This document shows positions 1 through 6,000 of a stretch of DNA of 64,000 bases, one piece after another. Source of the stretch: Escherichia coli. GTDB taxonomy: Bacteria; Pseudomonadota; Gammaproteobacteria; Enterobacterales; Enterobacteriaceae. How positions within the stretch are numbered: position 1 is the stretch's first letter; the number at the start of each line of letters is the position of its first letter. The stretch is taken from assembly GCF_003790525.1 (NCBI RefSeq), contig NZ_CP033635.1; one strand, given 5' to 3'. The position numbers are program-made.

Positions 1-3000
1 ACGGCAACCTGTTACGGGTTTATTTAAGCTCTCCGGTCTGGTCGTTGGTGAACTATTCATTACGCCATAGCCAGTTAGAAAGCGTAAGCGGTTTTATTGC
101 CTATCGGCAAAAGCAAATGCATACCCTGAAAGAGATAATTGCCAAACCGCGACTCACCGGCAGGGAATTTCATGATGTGCGAAAAATCATCAGCCAGCAG
201 GTTTCTTATTACGACACCTTAAGATCGCTTGATCCTGAAAATAAAGAAGCGTTACAGATTTCCCGCTTCCTCGCCGCCATTAATGGCCTGATGGGGGATA
301 AACATGACGACATGGTGGCGGATGATATGGAAAACCGCCATTCGTATGATGCACCGATGGCGCTGGATAGCGATATTCGTCAGCGCTTAGAACTGCTGAT
401 TTCGCGTTTTCCTCTATAACCGGAGCAATGATGTCATCTCGTTTGATTATTGCGCTGGTTATCATGCTCTTAGCCTCGGGTGTGCAGGCACACAATTTCG
501 TCACTGGCAAAACGGTTACCCCTGTTTATATCCAGGAAGGCGGCGAGCTGCTTCTGAATAGCGAAGACGAAATTCACTACCAAAAGTGGAACAGCACCCA
601 ATTGGCGGGAAAAGTCCGCATTATTCAGTATATCGCCGGGCGTAAGTCGGCGAAGAAAAAGAACTCACTGTTAATTAAAGCGGTTGAAGCGGCAAACTTT
701 CCGCAGGATCGTTTTCAGCCCACCACCATTGTGAACACCGATGATGCCATCTTTGGTACTGGCTATTTTGTCGTTGGCAAAATCGAAAAAAATAAACGCC
801 GCTATCCGTGGGCGCAATTCGTTATTGACGGCAATGGACTGGGACGCGTTGCCTGGCGGTTGCCGGAGCAGAGTTCAACCATTCTGGTGCTGAATAAAGA
901 CGGGCAAATTCAGTGGGCAAAGGACGGCAGCCTGACGCCGGAAGAGGTAGATCATGTCATTGCGCTGGCGCAGAAACTGATCAATGAATAAAAAATTCAA
1001 AGGATTGAGGGTGTTAGTGAGATGAAGCTGGTTGAACACTACATCATGCGTGGTACGCGCCGTCTGGTGCTGATTATCGTCGGTTTTCTGATCTTTATTT
1101 TCGCCAGCTACTCCGCACAGCGTTATCTGACCGAAGCGGCAAATGGGACCTTAGCTCTTGATGTTGTGCTGGATATCGTTTTCTACAAAGTGCTGATTGC
1201 ACTGGAGATGTTGTTACCTGTTGGTCTGTATGTGTCAGTTGGCGTGACGCTAGGGCAGATGTATACCGACTCGGAAATTACCGCTATCTCTGCGGCGGGG
1301 GGCAGTCCGGGACGCTTGTACAAAGCCGTTCTTTATCTGGCGATACCGCTAAGTATTTTTGTCACCCTTCTGTCGATGTATGGTCGGCCGTGGGCTTATG
1401 CGCAGATTTATCAACTGGAGCAACAGTCACAGTCGGAGCTGGATGTTCGCCAGTTGCGGGCAAAGAAATTTAACACTAACGATAACGGACGAATGATCCT
1501 TTCGCAGACGGTTGATCAGGATAATAATCGCCTGACTGACGCGCTGATTTATACTTCTACTGCCAATCGAACCCGCATTTTCCGCGCCCGTTCGGTTGAT
1601 GTGGTTGACCCATCACCTGAGAAACCGACCGTTATGTTGCATAACGGGACCGCCTATCTTCTCGATCATCAGGGGCGTGACGACAACGAACAGATCTACC
1701 GTAATCTGCAATTACATCTGAATCCGCTGGATCAAAGCCCTAACGTCAAACGCAAAGCAAAATCGGTCACGGAGCTGGCGCGCTCCGCCTTTCCTGCCGA
1801 TCATGCCGAACTGCAATGGCGACAAAGCCGTGGCCTGACAGCATTGTTGATGGCGCTGCTGGCCATTTCATTAAGTCGGGTAAAACCGCGGCAAGGGCGA
1901 TTTTCAACGTTATTGCCACTGACGTTGCTGTTTGTTGCCATTTTTTATGGCGGCGACGTCTGCCGTACGCTGGTGGCTAACGGTGCGATTCCCCTCATTC
2001 CTGGTTTGTGGTTAGTACCCGGACTCATGCTAATGGGCCTGCTGATGCTGGTCGCACGCGACTTCTCTTTGCTGCAGAAATTTTCCCGATGAATGTTTTC
2101 AGTCGCTATTTAATCCGTCATCTCTTTCTCGGTTTTGCCGCCGCCGCAGGGCTATTGCTGCCGCTTTTTACCACCTTCAACCTGATTAACGAACTGGATG
2201 ATGTCAGCCCGGGCGGTTATCGCTGGACTCTGGCGGTGCTGGTGGTGCTGATGACCTTACCGCGTACACTGGTCGAACTTTCGCCATTTATCGCATTATT
2301 GGGAGGGATTGTTGGCCTGGGGCAGTTATCGAAAAACAGTGAGCTTACCGCCATTCGCAGCACTGGGTTTTCTATCTTCCGTATTGCACTGGTGGCGCTG
2401 GTTGCCGGGATATTGTGGACTGTTTCGTTAGGCGCGATAGATGAGTGGGTGGCGTCGCCATTGCAGCAGCAGGCGCTGCAAATCAAATCGACTGCCACCG
2501 CGTTGGGGGAGGACGATGACATTACCGGCAATATGCTTTGGGCCAGGCGCGGTAATGAATTTGTGACGGTGAAATCGCTGAACGAGCAGGGCCAGCCTGT
2601 GGGCGTGGAGATATTTCATTATCGCGACGATCTCTCGCTCGAATCCTACATTTTTGCACGCAGTGCCTCCATTGAAGACGACAAAACGTGGATCCTGCAT
2701 GGTGTGAATCATAAAAAATGGTTGAATGGCAAAGAAACGCTGGAAACATCAGATAATCTTGCCTGGCAATCGGCCTTCACCAGTATGGATCTTGAAGAGT
2801 TATCGATGCCGGGGAATACTTTTTCTGTCCGTCAGCTTAATCATTACATCCATTATTTGCAGGAAACCGGACAACCCAGCAGCGAATACCGCCTTGCACT
2901 GTGGGAAAAACTGGGGCAACCGATCCTGACCCTGGCGATGATTTTGCTGGCTGTGCCGTTCACCTTTAGCGCCCCGCGCTCGCCAGGGGTGGGTAGCCGT

Positions 3001-6000
3001 CTCGCTGTAGGCGTCATCGTTGGCTTACTCACCTGGATCAGCTATCAAATCATGGTCAATCTGGGATTGTTATTTGCGTTGAGCGCACCTGTTACCGCGC
3101 TCGGTTTACCGGTAGCGTTTGTGTTGGTGGCGTTGAGCCTGGTGTATTGGTATGACAGACAACATTAAACCCGCCGTGGCGCAACACCACAGCGGGCTCA
3201 CATTACTGCTTCAGAGTAGCAAATGCCTGAATGATGGCATCGATTTGCTCACGACTGTGGGCAGCGTTTACGCTACAGCGCAGCAGAGTGATGCCTGCAG
3301 GCGCGGCAGGTGGCAGGATAAGATTCACATAAACGCCCAGCGAAATAAGCTCGCGCCAGATGCGTAAACCTTCCTCTTTCGAACCGATTATTACTGGCAC
3401 TACCGGGCTAATATGTGAACTTAACTCATAACCCAGTTTTTGCAGACCATCATACAGATGGTTGGCGTTATCCATCAGTTTTTGCCGCAGCTCTGGTTGT
3501 GTGGCAATGGTTCTTAACGACGAGCGCACGGTCGCAATGCAGGACGGAGAAGGAGAGGCGGTAAAAATATACGGGCGGCTGCCGTAGCGCAGCACTTCCA
3601 TCGCTTCCGAACCGACAGCAAAACCGCCAATCGAGGCCAGACTTTTACTGAAGGTGCCAACGATAATATCCACATCATCTTCAACGCCAACGGCTTCAGC
3701 CAGTCCGCGCCCCGTTGCGCCTAACACGCCAAACGAATGCGCTTCATCGACAATCAAATAACCACCGAGACGACGTTTGATATCAACAATTTCCGCTAAC
3801 GGCGCAACGTCACCGAGCATGCTGTAGATACCCTCAACGATGATAATCGCCTCTTTCGCCCGTTCACCGAGGCGAACCATGCGCCGTTCCAGATCTTTAG
3901 CATCGTTATGGCGGAAACGAATAATTTCCGCGCCACCGAGAGAACAGGCGTCATAAATACTGGCGTGGCTGTCGGCATCCAGTAACACCACGGCGTTATG
4001 GTCGGCAAGTGCGCTGATGACGCCTAAATTAGCGGTATAACCGGTTGAAAAAACGATAGCGGTAGGGCGATTGAAAAACTCGGCAATCTCTTTCTCTAAC
4101 GCCAGATGCGGCGCATAACTGCCGTTTGCCATACGAGAACCGGTGGTGCCGGTGCCTTGGGCCGCTAACGCTGCCTGACCTTCGGCGATGGCATCATGAT
4201 TAAAGGTTAAACCGAGATAATTATTGGTCCCGGCCAGAATCACTTTTTTATTGCCGATCCGACCTTCGGTGGCGGAATACACTTCATCAATACAGGTGCC
4301 AAACGGTGTTAACCCGTTGTCACTAAATTGCAGTCTCTCGCCAGCAAGGCGCGCATATTTATCGTATAGCCCCATTATTTATTCTCCAGCCATGGAAGTA
4401 GAGTTTCCATTAATTGCGCAGGGGTTTTGACATCCAGCAGAATATTAATAGGAATGGAAATATCGAATCTGTCTTCCAGCATCATTAAGAGATCCATCAC
4501 TTTGATCGACTCCAGGCCAAGATCGTTGACGAGATCGCTGTCGGGCTTAATTTCCACACCGTTTTCGACCAAATCCTGTAAACAGGAAAGGATGTAATCC
4601 ATTACTATTTCACGATTTACCATAGAAACGTTAACACACCTTTAAACAAGACAATCAAAATAGCCCGTTGCGTAATGCGTGTTCCAGGCTAATCCCGGGA
4701 AACCAATTAATATCTTCAGAAATACGGTTATTACTTGCCGACCAGTCGGCATGGGTTAATTCACGGATTTTCGAACGAGTCAGCATCGGTTCTTTACCCG
4801 CCAGACGGCTCAACGCGGTACTGATATCCGCAAGGCAGGTGAGTAGCGGCAGAGGAATACCGACCATCCGCACGGAACCACAGCGGACATCGGCAACAAG
4901 CTGTTGGACACGTTGCCAGTCATAGCCTCCGGCGACGCCATCGCATAATTCATAGGTTTGCGTCTGTACAGTTTCGGCGCTTAACCACTGACCCACTGCT
5001 TGCGCAAAATCGGTGACGTGCAGGAAAGAGAGCTGTGTCTCTGGCGTGCCAAGTCGTGGCAGCAGACCGCGCAGCATCCAGTCAAACAGCGGTTTTAACT
5101 CTTTATCGCCGGGACCATACACGGCTGTCGGGCGAAAAACGCCCAACGTAATTTCGTCAGCCATTGCAGTCAGCTGTTGTTCGGCGACGTGTTTGGAATT
5201 TGCGTACCAGGAGAGTTCGGGATGGCGCGCCGCCAGCGAAGAGATAAACAGAAAACGTTGGCAAAAGCCGCTCTCTTTTGCCGCTTGCATCAGGCGCAGG
5301 CTGCCGTCAACGTTGCAGCGGGTAAAAATCTCTTCTTTGTGCCCGCGCACTTGCCCGGCGCAATGGACCACCGCGCTGGCTCCGGTAACCAGTTCGCTAA
5401 GCGAATGTGTATCTTCCAGCGAACCGCGCACCCAAGTGAGATTATCATTGACGTGAGCGCGGGCAGTACGCGTCAATGCGCGAACGTGAAAGCCGCAGGC
5501 GAGCAGGTTATCAATAATATATTTACCGATAAACCCGGTAGCGCCCGTCACCGCGACAGTTTGATTCATGCCAGAGACTCCTGCACATGAAGACTGGCAG
5601 CATAAGCCTTCTGATAACGTTTTTTCGCTTCCGCACGGGCAGGCTTGCCGGAGGATGTTCGGGGAATACTGTGGGGCGGCAACAGATCGATATCCGCGGT
5701 AACGCCAAATTCGCTTTGGATCCGTGCTGCCAGCGCGTGGATAAGCTGCCCGCGACGTTCTTCATCGCTGATCCGACACTGGATCTGCAAAATGATTTTT
5801 TCCTGGGCGGTAACAAAAGCAATCGCATCGCCAGAATGAATTTCCGGTTCCTGTTCCGCAATATATTCAATATCCTGCGGCCAGATATTACGGCCACGAA
5901 TAATAATCAGATCTTTAATGCGTCCGGTGACATACAGATAACCGTCCAGCAGATAACCGAGGTCGCCGGTGTCTAACCAGCCCGTCGCGGCAATCTCGTC

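What the first reader, a model, noticed from the sequence alone, without database searches (positions are those of the whole stretch)
1..3168. Second LptF/LptG-like permease pair with a YtfJ-like periplasmic protein, convergent on the lipid operon
Two adjacent, overlapping genes encode YjgP/YjgQ-family permeases with the architecture of the LPS transporter subunits LptF and LptG, preceded by a signal-peptide protein and a partial upstream ORF. E. coli needs only one LptFG pair for LPS export, so an accessory pair placed tail-to-tail with an acyl-ACP/alpha-oxoamine synthase operon suggests a dedicated extraction route for a different lipid, possibly the operon product. An LptB-like ATPase partner is not in the window and may lie upstream.
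Basis: inference. Interest (0 to 1): 0.7.

Follow-up and report, generated by a model that had tools for sequence, protein, structure and literature searches.

The report
Sphingolipid-locus second LptF/LptG permease pair
Most E. coli strains (but not K-12) carry a second, divergent copy of the LptF/LptG lipid-extracting membrane permeases. It sits inside the sphingolipid (ceramide) synthesis gene cluster and most likely exports that lipid, an arrangement already described for Caulobacter and already drawn for E. coli in a 2026 preprint.

Summary
Window 1022-2092 and 2089-3168 encode overlapping LptF- and LptG-family permeases. They follow a signal-peptide YtfJ paralogue (428-991) and the 3' end of an upstream gene (..419), and they converge on an spt operon.

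It is a second pair. It is 27-29% identical to the K-12 LptF/LptG. The canonical pair is in 5425 of 5426 complete E. coli genomes, and this pair is in about 4100.

The neighbouring "lipid operon" is the known ceramide cluster: aasR-cerR-acpR-spt plus yghO (bcerS). Three of its E. coli proteins have been studied biochemically (PMC9386255).

In a scan of 100,044 species genomes, all 55 LptG2-like loci with full 10-kb flanks carry ceramide genes. This holds across Enterobacterales, Pseudomonadaceae and Betaproteobacteria, despite rearrangements.

No ABC ATPase, LptA or LptC lies in the window or in the 12 kb upstream of it. In Caulobacter, LptF2/LptG2 bind the housekeeping LptB (bioRxiv 10.64898/2026.04.12.717747).

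Less explored: Enterobacterales replace the Caulobacter-type head-group genes with yghTSRQ, a CHAD-like protein and YtfJ2.

The parts
1..419 (+). 3' part (about residues 137-274) of a 274-aa conserved cytoplasmic helical protein with a CHAD-like fold. The gene starts 405 nt upstream of the window, directly after yghQ.
428..991 (+). ytfJ2: a periplasmic YtfJ-family protein, paralogue of K-12 YtfJ. It has a thioredoxin-like fold but no cysteines.
   Evidence: TIGR01626 216.5 bits. 55% identical to b4216. Conserved signal peptide. AF2 pLDDT 82 and Foldseek hits to TlpA/ResA/AhpC-type proteins at about E 1e-7. Present in 32 of 33 Enterobacterales loci and 0 of 47 others.
1022..2092 (+). lptF2: second LptF-family permease (356 aa).
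   Evidence: TIGR04407 319.8 bits. 29% identical to K-12 LptF. Matches PDB LptF chains at E 1e-32 to 1e-20 over the full length. Coupling-helix motif YT[DE]SEIT is conserved. dN/dS 0.05-0.08.
2089..3168 (+). lptG2: second LptG-family permease (359 aa), with a 4-bp overlap with lptF2.
   Evidence: TIGR04408 301.6 bits. 27% identical to K-12 LptG. Matches PDB LptG chains at about E 1e-41. Coupling-helix Glu is conserved. dN/dS 0.04-0.05. ATGA overlap.
3166..3200 (.). GC-rich hairpin (16-bp stem) filling the gap between the convergent lptG2 and spt genes. It looks like a bidirectional terminator.
   Evidence: This is a consensus scan only; function is not shown.
3203..4375 (-). spt: serine palmitoyltransferase.
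   Evidence: NF047599 600 bits against a cutoff of 500. The E. coli BL21 enzyme was assayed in PMC9386255.
4375..4623 (-). acpR: specialised acyl carrier protein for Spt.
   Evidence: ACP model hits. PMC9386255 (ECD_02853).
4655..5569 (-). cerR/epi: NAD-dependent epimerase-family reductase of the ceramide pathway.
   Evidence: Gene assignment in PMC9386255 (ECD_02852).
5566..7290 (-). aasR: fatty acyl-AMP ligase / acyl-AcpR synthetase.
   Evidence: NF006624 872 bits. PMC9386255 (ECD_02851). The PGAP start corresponds to window 7290.
7661..8803 (+). yghO: putative ceramide synthase (N-acyltransferase; aca/bcerS).
   Evidence: Assigned as aca in PMC9386255. Homologues at 45-98% identity lie next to LptF2/G2-like pairs in 63 of 80 loci.

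Best explanation
Window 1022-3168 encodes LptF2 and LptG2, an ancient paralogous copy of the LptF/LptG transmembrane subunits that belongs to the bacterial sphingolipid locus.

Proposed mechanism:
1. Ceramide is made at the cytoplasmic face by AasR, AcpR, Spt, YghO (bCerS) and CerR.
2. The lipid receives a head group. In Enterobacterales the responsible genes are probably the linked yghT/S/R and the CHAD-like gene.
3. The lipid is flipped across the inner membrane. The candidate is the MOP-family protein YghQ.
4. An LptF2-LptG2 heterodimer then extracts it from the outer leaflet of the inner membrane. The locus has no ATPase of its own, so the dimer borrows the housekeeping ATPase LptB, docking through the conserved coupling-helix glutamates.
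5. The lipid is handed on towards the outer membrane, probably over the shared Lpt bridge.

Shown here: paralogy, that this is a second copy, purifying selection, absence of a linked ATPase, and conserved linkage to ceramide genes.
Inferred: the substrate, the use of LptB, and the route after extraction.
For: 1. Family and architecture. Both proteins exceed the curated LptF and LptG cut-offs. They align end to end with solved LptF and LptG chains. A rough hydropathy scan recovered 5-6 of the 6 expected TM segments in a 3 TM / ~150-aa loop / 3 TM layout, as it did for the K-12 proteins. The genes overlap by 4 bp.
2. Second copy. Identity to K-12 LptF/LptG is 27-29%. Canonical lptFG is in 5425 of 5426 genomes and this pair is in 4131. 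K-12 lost it through an IS5-associated deletion between yghO and yghQ.
3. Linkage within E. coli. 4066 genomes have both the pair and the spt operon, against 4105 and 4067 for each alone.
4. Linkage across species. 71 of 80 LptG2-like loci, and 55 of 55 with full flanks, carry ceramide genes within 10 kb. Gene order differs: convergent in Escherichia and Hafnia, spt upstream of yghT in Serratia, and a different layout in Pseudomonas.
5. No lptB, lptA or lptC paralogue in the window or in the 12 kb upstream. The coupling-helix Glu is kept, and this segment is among the best conserved between the paralogues.
6. Functional constraint. dN/dS is 0.04-0.08.
7. Published experiments. In Caulobacter, lptF2 and lptG2 can be deleted only when spt or cpgB is absent, the two proteins co-purify, and they pull down LptB. 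Fig. 2B of that preprint draws the E. coli UTI89 locus (bioRxiv 10.64898/2026.04.12.717747). LptC2/F2/G2 were named earlier in PMC11324152. That paper lists A. vinelandii and P. luteola orthologues, and the LptG2-like proteins in my loci from those species are 48-49% identical to E. coli LptG2.
Against: - No experiment exists on the E. coli proteins, and I found no report of a native E. coli sphingolipid in the searchable library.
- I could not align the Caulobacter proteins directly. Orthology rests on the literature and on intermediate species.
- No substrate-specificity signature was found. The lipid A phosphate-binding residues LptG K34, K40, K41 and R133 are absent from LptG2, but they are also absent from most LptG-family members, so this is uninformative.
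- Enterobacterales lack the Cpg head-group genes found in every other lineage, so the transported lipid is unknown.
- 22% of E. coli genomes live without the locus, so it is dispensable.
Confidence: 0.72

Rival explanations
1. The pair is a redundant or condition-specific LPS exporter, for example for a modified lipid A or LPS glycoform, as the PGAP names 'LptF/LptG LPS export permease' imply.
For: Both proteins pass the NCBIfam equivalog cut-offs for LptF and LptG, and PGAP names them so. The basic residues corresponding to LptF R33 and K317 and to LptG K62 and R136 are retained.
Against: Identity to the canonical pair is only 27-29%. The canonical pair is never lost, while this one is missing from 22% of genomes. 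Linkage to ceramide genes is invariant across three proteobacterial groups, and there is none to LPS genes. In Caulobacter the paralogues are essential only when sphingolipid is made (bioRxiv 10.64898/2026.04.12.717747).
Confidence: 0.08
2. LptF2/LptG2 work with their own energising partner rather than LptB. Candidates are one of the linked P-loop proteins YghR/S/T or an unlinked ABC ATPase.
For: Three paralogous ATP-binding P-loop genes (yghT, yghS, yghR) sit in the same conserved gene block in 25 of 33 Enterobacterales loci.
Against: YghR/S/T resemble thymidylate kinases only weakly and show no significant ABC-transporter domain match. They are absent from most non-enterobacterial loci, which still have LptF2G2. 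The coupling-helix glutamates that dock LptB are conserved. Caulobacter LptF2/G2 pull down LptB.
Confidence: 0.1
3. The pair exports a different product of the upstream genes rather than the ceramide-based lipid, for example a lipid-linked glycan handled by the Wzx-like YghQ. In that case the adjacency to spt would be incidental in E. coli.
For: YghQ belongs to the MOP / polysaccharide-flippase family. lptF2G2 is co-directional with yghSRQ, not with spt.
Against: LptF2G2 stays linked to ceramide genes in lineages that lack YghQ, the CHAD-like gene and YtfJ2 entirely (0 of 47). In Serratia the whole yghT-to-lptG2 block moved but remained next to the spt operon.
Confidence: 0.07
4. The genes are decaying remnants of a horizontally acquired island and have no current function in E. 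coli.
For: The locus is absent from 22% of genomes and was deleted in K-12. I found no report of an E. coli sphingolipid.
Against: dN/dS is 0.04-0.08. 4105 of 4131 carriers have at least 80% of the pair at 95-100% identity. The E. coli Spt, AcpR and AasR are active enzymes (PMC9386255).
Confidence: 0.03

Closest known systems
Caulobacter crescentus LptF2/LptG2 (CCNA_01214/CCNA_01213 = CC_1156/CC_1155), the sphingolipid-locus paralogues of LptFG (PMC11324152; bioRxiv 10.64898/2026.04.12.717747)
   Same: A second LptF/LptG pair encoded inside the ceramide locus. No linked LptB. The pair is adjacent to a bcerS/yghO homologue. The preprint's Fig. 2B draws the E. coli UTI89 locus with homologous genes in matching colours.
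   Different: E. coli has no LptC2. It lacks the CpgA/B/C-type head-group genes. Instead it carries yghTSRQ, a CHAD-like protein and YtfJ2. The E. coli proteins are untested. I did not align the sequences directly.
Canonical LptB2FGC lipopolysaccharide extractor of E. coli (LptF b4261, LptG b4262)
   Same: Same family (PF03739). Same 3 TM / periplasmic domain / 3 TM layout. Overlapping F-G gene pair. Conserved coupling-helix Glu (LptF E84, LptG E88).
   Different: 27-29% identity. Dispensable and strain-variable. Located at yghQ-glcC rather than next to pepA. Genomically tied to sphingolipid genes rather than LPS genes. The lipid A-binding residues LptG K34, K40, K41 and R133 are not kept, although this is not diagnostic.
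Pseudomonadaceae/Azotobacter/Nitrosomonas ceramide-phosphoglycerate-type clusters (PMC11324152, Fig. 7)
   Same: LptF2/G2 (47-58% identical to the E. coli proteins in Pseudomonadaceae) lie next to aasR-cerR-acpR-spt and a yghO homologue.
   Different: These clusters carry a DAGK_cat lipid kinase, Tam41-like, NTP_transf_3 and CDP-OH_P_transf genes. Many also have an MsbA-like exporter and an OlsC/LpxO-like hydroxylase. None of these is in the Enterobacterales locus.
YtfJ (b4216; PF09695/TIGR01626), a periplasmic protein of unknown function
   Same: 55% identity, same length, signal peptide present.
   Different: YtfJ2 is an extra copy embedded in the sphingolipid locus of Enterobacterales only.

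Membership tests
LptF/LptG permease family (PF03739; TIGR04407 / TIGR04408) | Profile score above the curated family cut-off over the full length | tested here: met
   LptF2 scores 319.8 against a cutoff of 230 (profile positions 2-346 of 347). LptG2 scores 301.6 against 240 (positions 2-350 of 351). The reciprocal models score only 69-88 bits.
LptF/LptG permease family (PF03739; TIGR04407 / TIGR04408) | Six TM helices (3+3) flanking a ~150-residue periplasmic beta-jellyroll domain | tested here: inconclusive
   A crude hydropathy scan finds 5-6 TM segments in the 3 / loop / 3 pattern for both the paralogues and the K-12 proteins. Full-length alignment to solved LptF and LptG chains. The jellyroll fold itself was not modelled.
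LptF/LptG permease family (PF03739; TIGR04407 / TIGR04408) | Coupling-helix glutamate (LptF E84 / LptG E88) that docks the LptB groove | tested here: met
   SEIT in LptF2 and SELT in LptG2 align with E84 and E88. The Glu is present in 134 of 135 LptG-family representatives.
LptF/LptG permease family (PF03739; TIGR04407 / TIGR04408) | Adjacent, translationally coupled F and G genes | tested here: met
   ATGA overlap at 2089-2092. An LptF2 homologue lies directly upstream of LptG2 in 79 of 80 loci.
LPS exporter LptB2FG (functional equivalog, as named by PGAP) | Universally present, essential, single-copy LPS extractor | tested here: not met
   Absent from about 22% of complete E. coli genomes and from K-12. 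The canonical pair is present in 5425 of 5426.
LPS exporter LptB2FG (functional equivalog, as named by PGAP) | Binds and extracts LPS | not testable with these tools
   Residue comparison was uninformative. LptG K34, K40, K41 and R133 are not conserved across the family as a whole.
Sphingolipid-locus LptF2/LptG2 (Caulobacter type) | Second LptFG pair encoded within or next to ceramide synthesis genes (spt, acpR, cerR, aasR, bcerS) | tested here: met
   Convergent with spt across a 34-bp gap. yghO lies 4.5 kb away. 55 of 55 full-flank related loci show the linkage.
Sphingolipid-locus LptF2/LptG2 (Caulobacter type) | Sequence orthology to CCNA_01214/CCNA_01213 | tested here: inconclusive
   Caulobacter sequences could not be fetched. 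The link is indirect: 48-49% identity to the LptG2-like proteins of A. vinelandii and P. luteola, species for which PMC11324152 lists CC_1155/1156 orthologues. The preprint's Fig. 2B also shows E. coli UTI89.
Sphingolipid-locus LptF2/LptG2 (Caulobacter type) | Physical interaction with the housekeeping LptB; no dedicated ATPase | not testable with these tools
   Only the absence of a linked lptB paralogue could be shown.
Sphingolipid-locus LptF2/LptG2 (Caulobacter type) | Deletion tolerated only when sphingolipid synthesis is off | not testable with these tools
   This is a genetic experiment. It has been done only in Caulobacter.
YtfJ family (TIGR01626 / PF09695) | Profile score above cut-off and an N-terminal signal peptide | tested here: met
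   216.5 bits against a cutoff of 151. PF09695 is recorded on orthologues. Conserved signal peptide.
CHAD domain (PF05235) for the upstream 274-aa protein | Match to the CHAD sequence profile | tested here: not met
   No CHAD hit in Pfam, even at E <= 10.
CHAD domain (PF05235) for the upstream 274-aa protein | Two-four-helix-bundle CHAD fold with conserved His and basic residues | tested here: met
   [not shown]

The most novel reading that the evidence does not exclude
Enterobacterales did not just inherit the Caulobacter-type system. They kept the ceramide core genes and LptF2/G2 but replaced the whole ceramide-phosphoglycerate head-group and flippase module. In its place are three thymidylate-kinase-like P-loop proteins (YghT/S/R), a MOP-family flippase (YghQ), a cytoplasmic CHAD-like protein (a fold known for binding polyphosphate) and a periplasmic cysteine-free thioredoxin-fold protein (YtfJ2).

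If so, about 78% of E. coli strains would make and export a structurally undescribed sphingolipid. It would have been missed because K-12 deleted the locus. YtfJ2 would be a new periplasmic component of its maturation or transit.
Probability: 0.35. Interest if true: 0.7.

Novelty: already known. Interest (0 to 1): 0.4.

Why it matters
LptB2FG is an antibiotic target and the model for how lipids are extracted from a membrane. A paralogous permease pair that shares LptB but moves a sphingolipid shows how substrate specificity in this machine can be re-tuned. It also implies competition for LptB.

For E. coli, the locus sits in roughly four of five sequenced strains, including BL21, UPEC and APEC isolates, but is missing from K-12. 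Outer-membrane lipid biology inferred from K-12 may therefore be incomplete.

PGAP's naming of these genes as 'LPS export permease LptF/LptG' is probably a functional mis-annotation. It produces two apparent lptF and lptG genes per genome.

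Tried and rejected
1. Substrate-specificity signature. I tested whether LptG2 had lost the lipid A phosphate-binding residues listed in PMC6744409 (LptG K34, K40, K41, R133). It has. However, most of 135 LptG-family representatives also carry D/E at these positions, and the solved Pseudomonas LptG aligned also lacks these lysines. The idea was dropped.

2. YghR/S/T as homologues of the Caulobacter ceramide kinase CpgB. CpgB is a DAGK_cat (GGDG-motif) kinase (PMC10331486). YghRST are weak thymidylate-kinase-like P-loop proteins. 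I also considered a PPK2-like identity, given the CHAD-like neighbour, but found no such match.

3. YtfJ2 as an LptA/LptC-like beta-jellyroll bridge protein. This is rejected, because the model has a thioredoxin-like alpha/beta fold.

4. Search for LptA, LptB or LptC paralogues in the window, the upstream 12 kb and 80 related loci. The only finds were generic ABC domains, such as the MsbA-like exporter in Pseudomonas loci, and one odd MAG (L065).

5. Looking up taxa for the next-closest LptG2 relatives returned mostly unnamed metagenomic proteins. The contig carrying P0124 was too short to be informative.

6. Literature searches for yghQ/R/S/T and ytfJ function gave only incidental mentions in omics studies.

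7. The dN/dS values for ytfJ2 against L010 and L011 are unreliable because an indel disrupts the ungapped comparison. Only the L009 value (0.15) is usable.

Full report
**What is there**

The window is E. coli chromosome and is 100% identical to strain CREC-544 over the first 7.6 kb. I fetched that strain's annotation with 12 kb on each side.

The gene order there is yghT (minus strand), then yghS, yghR, yghQ, a 274-aa hypothetical gene, a YtfJ-family gene, 'lptF' and 'lptG' on the plus strand. Convergent with these on the minus strand are spt, an acyl carrier protein gene, an epimerase-family reductase and a fatty acyl-AMP ligase. yghO (plus strand) and glcC follow.

In window coordinates:
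- The hypothetical gene ends at 419.
- The YtfJ paralogue is 428/431-991.
- The LptF-like gene is 1022-2092.
- The LptG-like gene is 2089-3168.

The two permease genes overlap in ATGA. A 16-bp-stem hairpin at 3166-3200 fills the 34-bp gap before the stop codon of spt.

**Family assignment and copy number**

Both permeases exceed NCBI's curated equivalog thresholds: LptF 319.8 against 230, and LptG 301.6 against 240. They align over their whole length with solved LptF and LptG chains. A rough hydropathy scan gives the family's 3 TM / periplasmic loop / 3 TM layout.

They are only 29% and 27% identical to K-12 LptF and LptG. The canonical lptFG DNA is found in 5425 of 5426 complete E. coli genomes. 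The pair in the window is found in 4131 genomes, and 4105 of those have at least 80% coverage.

So this is an accessory second pair, not a relocated essential one.

K-12 lacks the pair because an IS5 element sits between yghO and a truncated yghQ. Everything from the 3' end of yghQ through aasR is missing.

The genes are not decaying. dN/dS against other Escherichia lineages is 0.04-0.08.

**The neighbouring operon**

The alpha-oxoamine synthase scores 600 bits on the serine palmitoyltransferase model against a cutoff of 500.

Padilla-Gomez et al. (PMC9386255) characterised the E. coli BL21 orthologues biochemically:
- AcpR (ECD_02853) carries 4'-phosphopantetheine.
- AasR (ECD_02851) acylates AcpR.
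- Spt (ECD_02854) prefers acyl-AcpR as its substrate.

The same paper assigns the reductase (epi/cerR) and yghO (the N-acyltransferase, aca/bcerS) to dihydroceramide synthesis. The 'lipid operon' is thus the bacterial ceramide cluster.

**Co-occurrence**

Within E. coli, a joint query that needs both halves to reach 80% coverage hits 4066 genomes. The separate halves hit 4105 and 4067.

Across species I built an LptG2 alignment and scanned one genome per species. The 80 loci returned fall into these groups by LptG2 identity:
- Enterobacterales: 60-98%.
- Pseudomonadaceae and Azotobacter: 47-58%.
- Nitrococcus, some Betaproteobacteria and an unclassified gammaproteobacterial MAG: 44-45%.
- Nitrosomonadaceae and unclassified MAGs: 32-36%.

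A tblastn of the E. coli locus proteins against these loci found a ceramide gene within 10 kb in 71 of 80. Among loci with full flanks the figure is 55 of 55, and 46 of those 55 have Spt itself. The nine negatives are all truncated contigs. The canonical K-12 lptFG locus has none.

Gene order is not conserved. Escherichia and Hafnia are convergent. In Serratia the spt operon lies upstream of yghT. Pseudomonas differs again. The persistent linkage therefore argues for functional coupling rather than inherited synteny.

**The ATPase question**

The upstream genes yghR, yghS and yghT are P-loop proteins with weak thymidylate-kinase similarity. They have no significant ABC-transporter domain.

A tblastn with K-12 LptB, LptA and LptC finds nothing in the window or the 12 kb upstream, apart from one 22%-identical generic ABC match about 40 kb away.

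The coupling-helix glutamates that dock LptB (LptF E84, LptG E88) are conserved. The surrounding segment is among the best-conserved stretches between the paralogues.

**Published context**

Olea-Ozuna et al. 2024 (PMC11324152) named CC_1168, CC_1156 and CC_1155 as LptC2, LptF2 and LptG2. They proposed that these proteins transport phosphosphingolipids.

Uchendu, Isom and Klein (bioRxiv 10.64898/2026.04.12.717747) showed three things in Caulobacter:
- lptF2, lptG2 and lptC2 can be deleted only in delta-spt or delta-cpgB backgrounds.
- LptF2 and LptG2 co-purify.
- They interact with the sole LptB.

Their Fig. 2B draws the E. coli UTI89 locus, and they note that lptF2 and lptG2 occur in many alpha- and gammaproteobacterial sphingolipid loci.

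The E. coli proteins themselves remain untested, and I found no report of a native E. coli sphingolipid.

**What differs in Enterobacterales**

Every non-enterobacterial locus group carries Caulobacter-type head-group genes: a DAGK_cat kinase, Tam41-like, NTP_transf_3 and CDP-OH_P_transf. Many also have an MsbA-like exporter and an OlsC/LpxO-like hydroxylase. None of these is present in the 35 Escherichia and other Enterobacterales sequences tested.

Conversely, YtfJ2 (32 of 33), the 274-aa protein (31 of 33) and YghQ (25 of 33) occur only in Enterobacterales loci and in 0 of 47 others.

YtfJ2:
- It is 55% identical to K-12 YtfJ.
- It has a conserved signal peptide.
- It models as a thioredoxin-like fold with no cysteine. 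An invariant basic loop, IAGRxSAKxxNS, appears to occupy the place of the CXXC motif; I judged this from the alignment, not from a structural superposition.
- It is therefore not an LptA/LptC-type bridge protein.

These observations suggest a head group different from Caulobacter's ceramide phosphoglycerate. The chemistry is unknown.

**Verdict**

- The feature is real.
- It is a second, sphingolipid-associated LptF2/LptG2 pair.
- It most likely forms an extractor with the housekeeping LptB.
- There is no upstream ATPase.

The concept is already known. The residual novelty is the enterobacterial accessory module and the unidentified E. coli lipid.

Noticed in passing
[not shown]
   Followed up: partly
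window 428-991: YtfJ2 has a thioredoxin-like fold but no cysteine. An invariant basic loop (IAGRxSAKxxNS) appears to occupy the usual CXXC position. It is a locus-specific paralogue (55% identity) of the uncharacterised periplasmic YtfJ.
   Followed up: partly
L001 7831-11595 (upstream of the window: yghT, yghS, yghR, yghQ): Three mutually 35-44% identical P-loop proteins and a MOP-family flippase are part of the conserved enterobacterial sphingolipid block. They are not homologues of the Caulobacter ceramide kinase CpgB, and their role is unknown.
   Followed up: partly
L088 (K-12 NC_000913.3, 3,130,146-3,131,340): IS5LO sits exactly where the segment from the 3' end of yghQ through aasR is missing in K-12. 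This explains why these genes have no K-12 names and why yghQ is truncated there.
   Followed up: yes
window 1022-3168 and RefSeq annotation: PGAP names the accessory genes 'lptF/lptG LPS export ABC transporter permease' because they pass the equivalog cut-offs. About 4100 E. coli genomes therefore carry two annotated lptF and lptG genes, which is a likely systematic functional mis-annotation.
   Followed up: yes
P0022: One E. coli protein record is a 456-aa fusion of a GspC (PF11356) part with 72% of LptG2 at 98% identity. This suggests a strain with a deletion joining lptG2 to the downstream gsp (type II secretion) region.
   Followed up: no
L065 (MAG labelled Klebsiella pneumoniae, CAMDWI010000003.1): An LptF2/G2-like pair (31-35% identity) lies with spt-cluster genes and, about 9 kb away, lptA-like (33%) and lptB-like (64%) genes. 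The taxon label looks wrong. This may be an organism whose Lpt genes and sphingolipid genes are all clustered.
   Followed up: no
L016 (Martelella alba BGMRC 2031) and L044 (Pseudomonas sp. MAG): L016 is labelled as an alphaproteobacterium but has a fully enterobacterial-type locus at 61-79% identity. L044 is a Pseudomonas-type locus with YghT/S/R at about 70% identity. These may reflect mislabelling, chimeric bins or recent transfer.
   Followed up: no
L004 17126-17854 (Hafnia): A 4'-phosphopantetheinyl transferase gene (ACPS) lies next to the yghO homologue. It may be the enzyme that activates AcpR in that genus.
   Followed up: no
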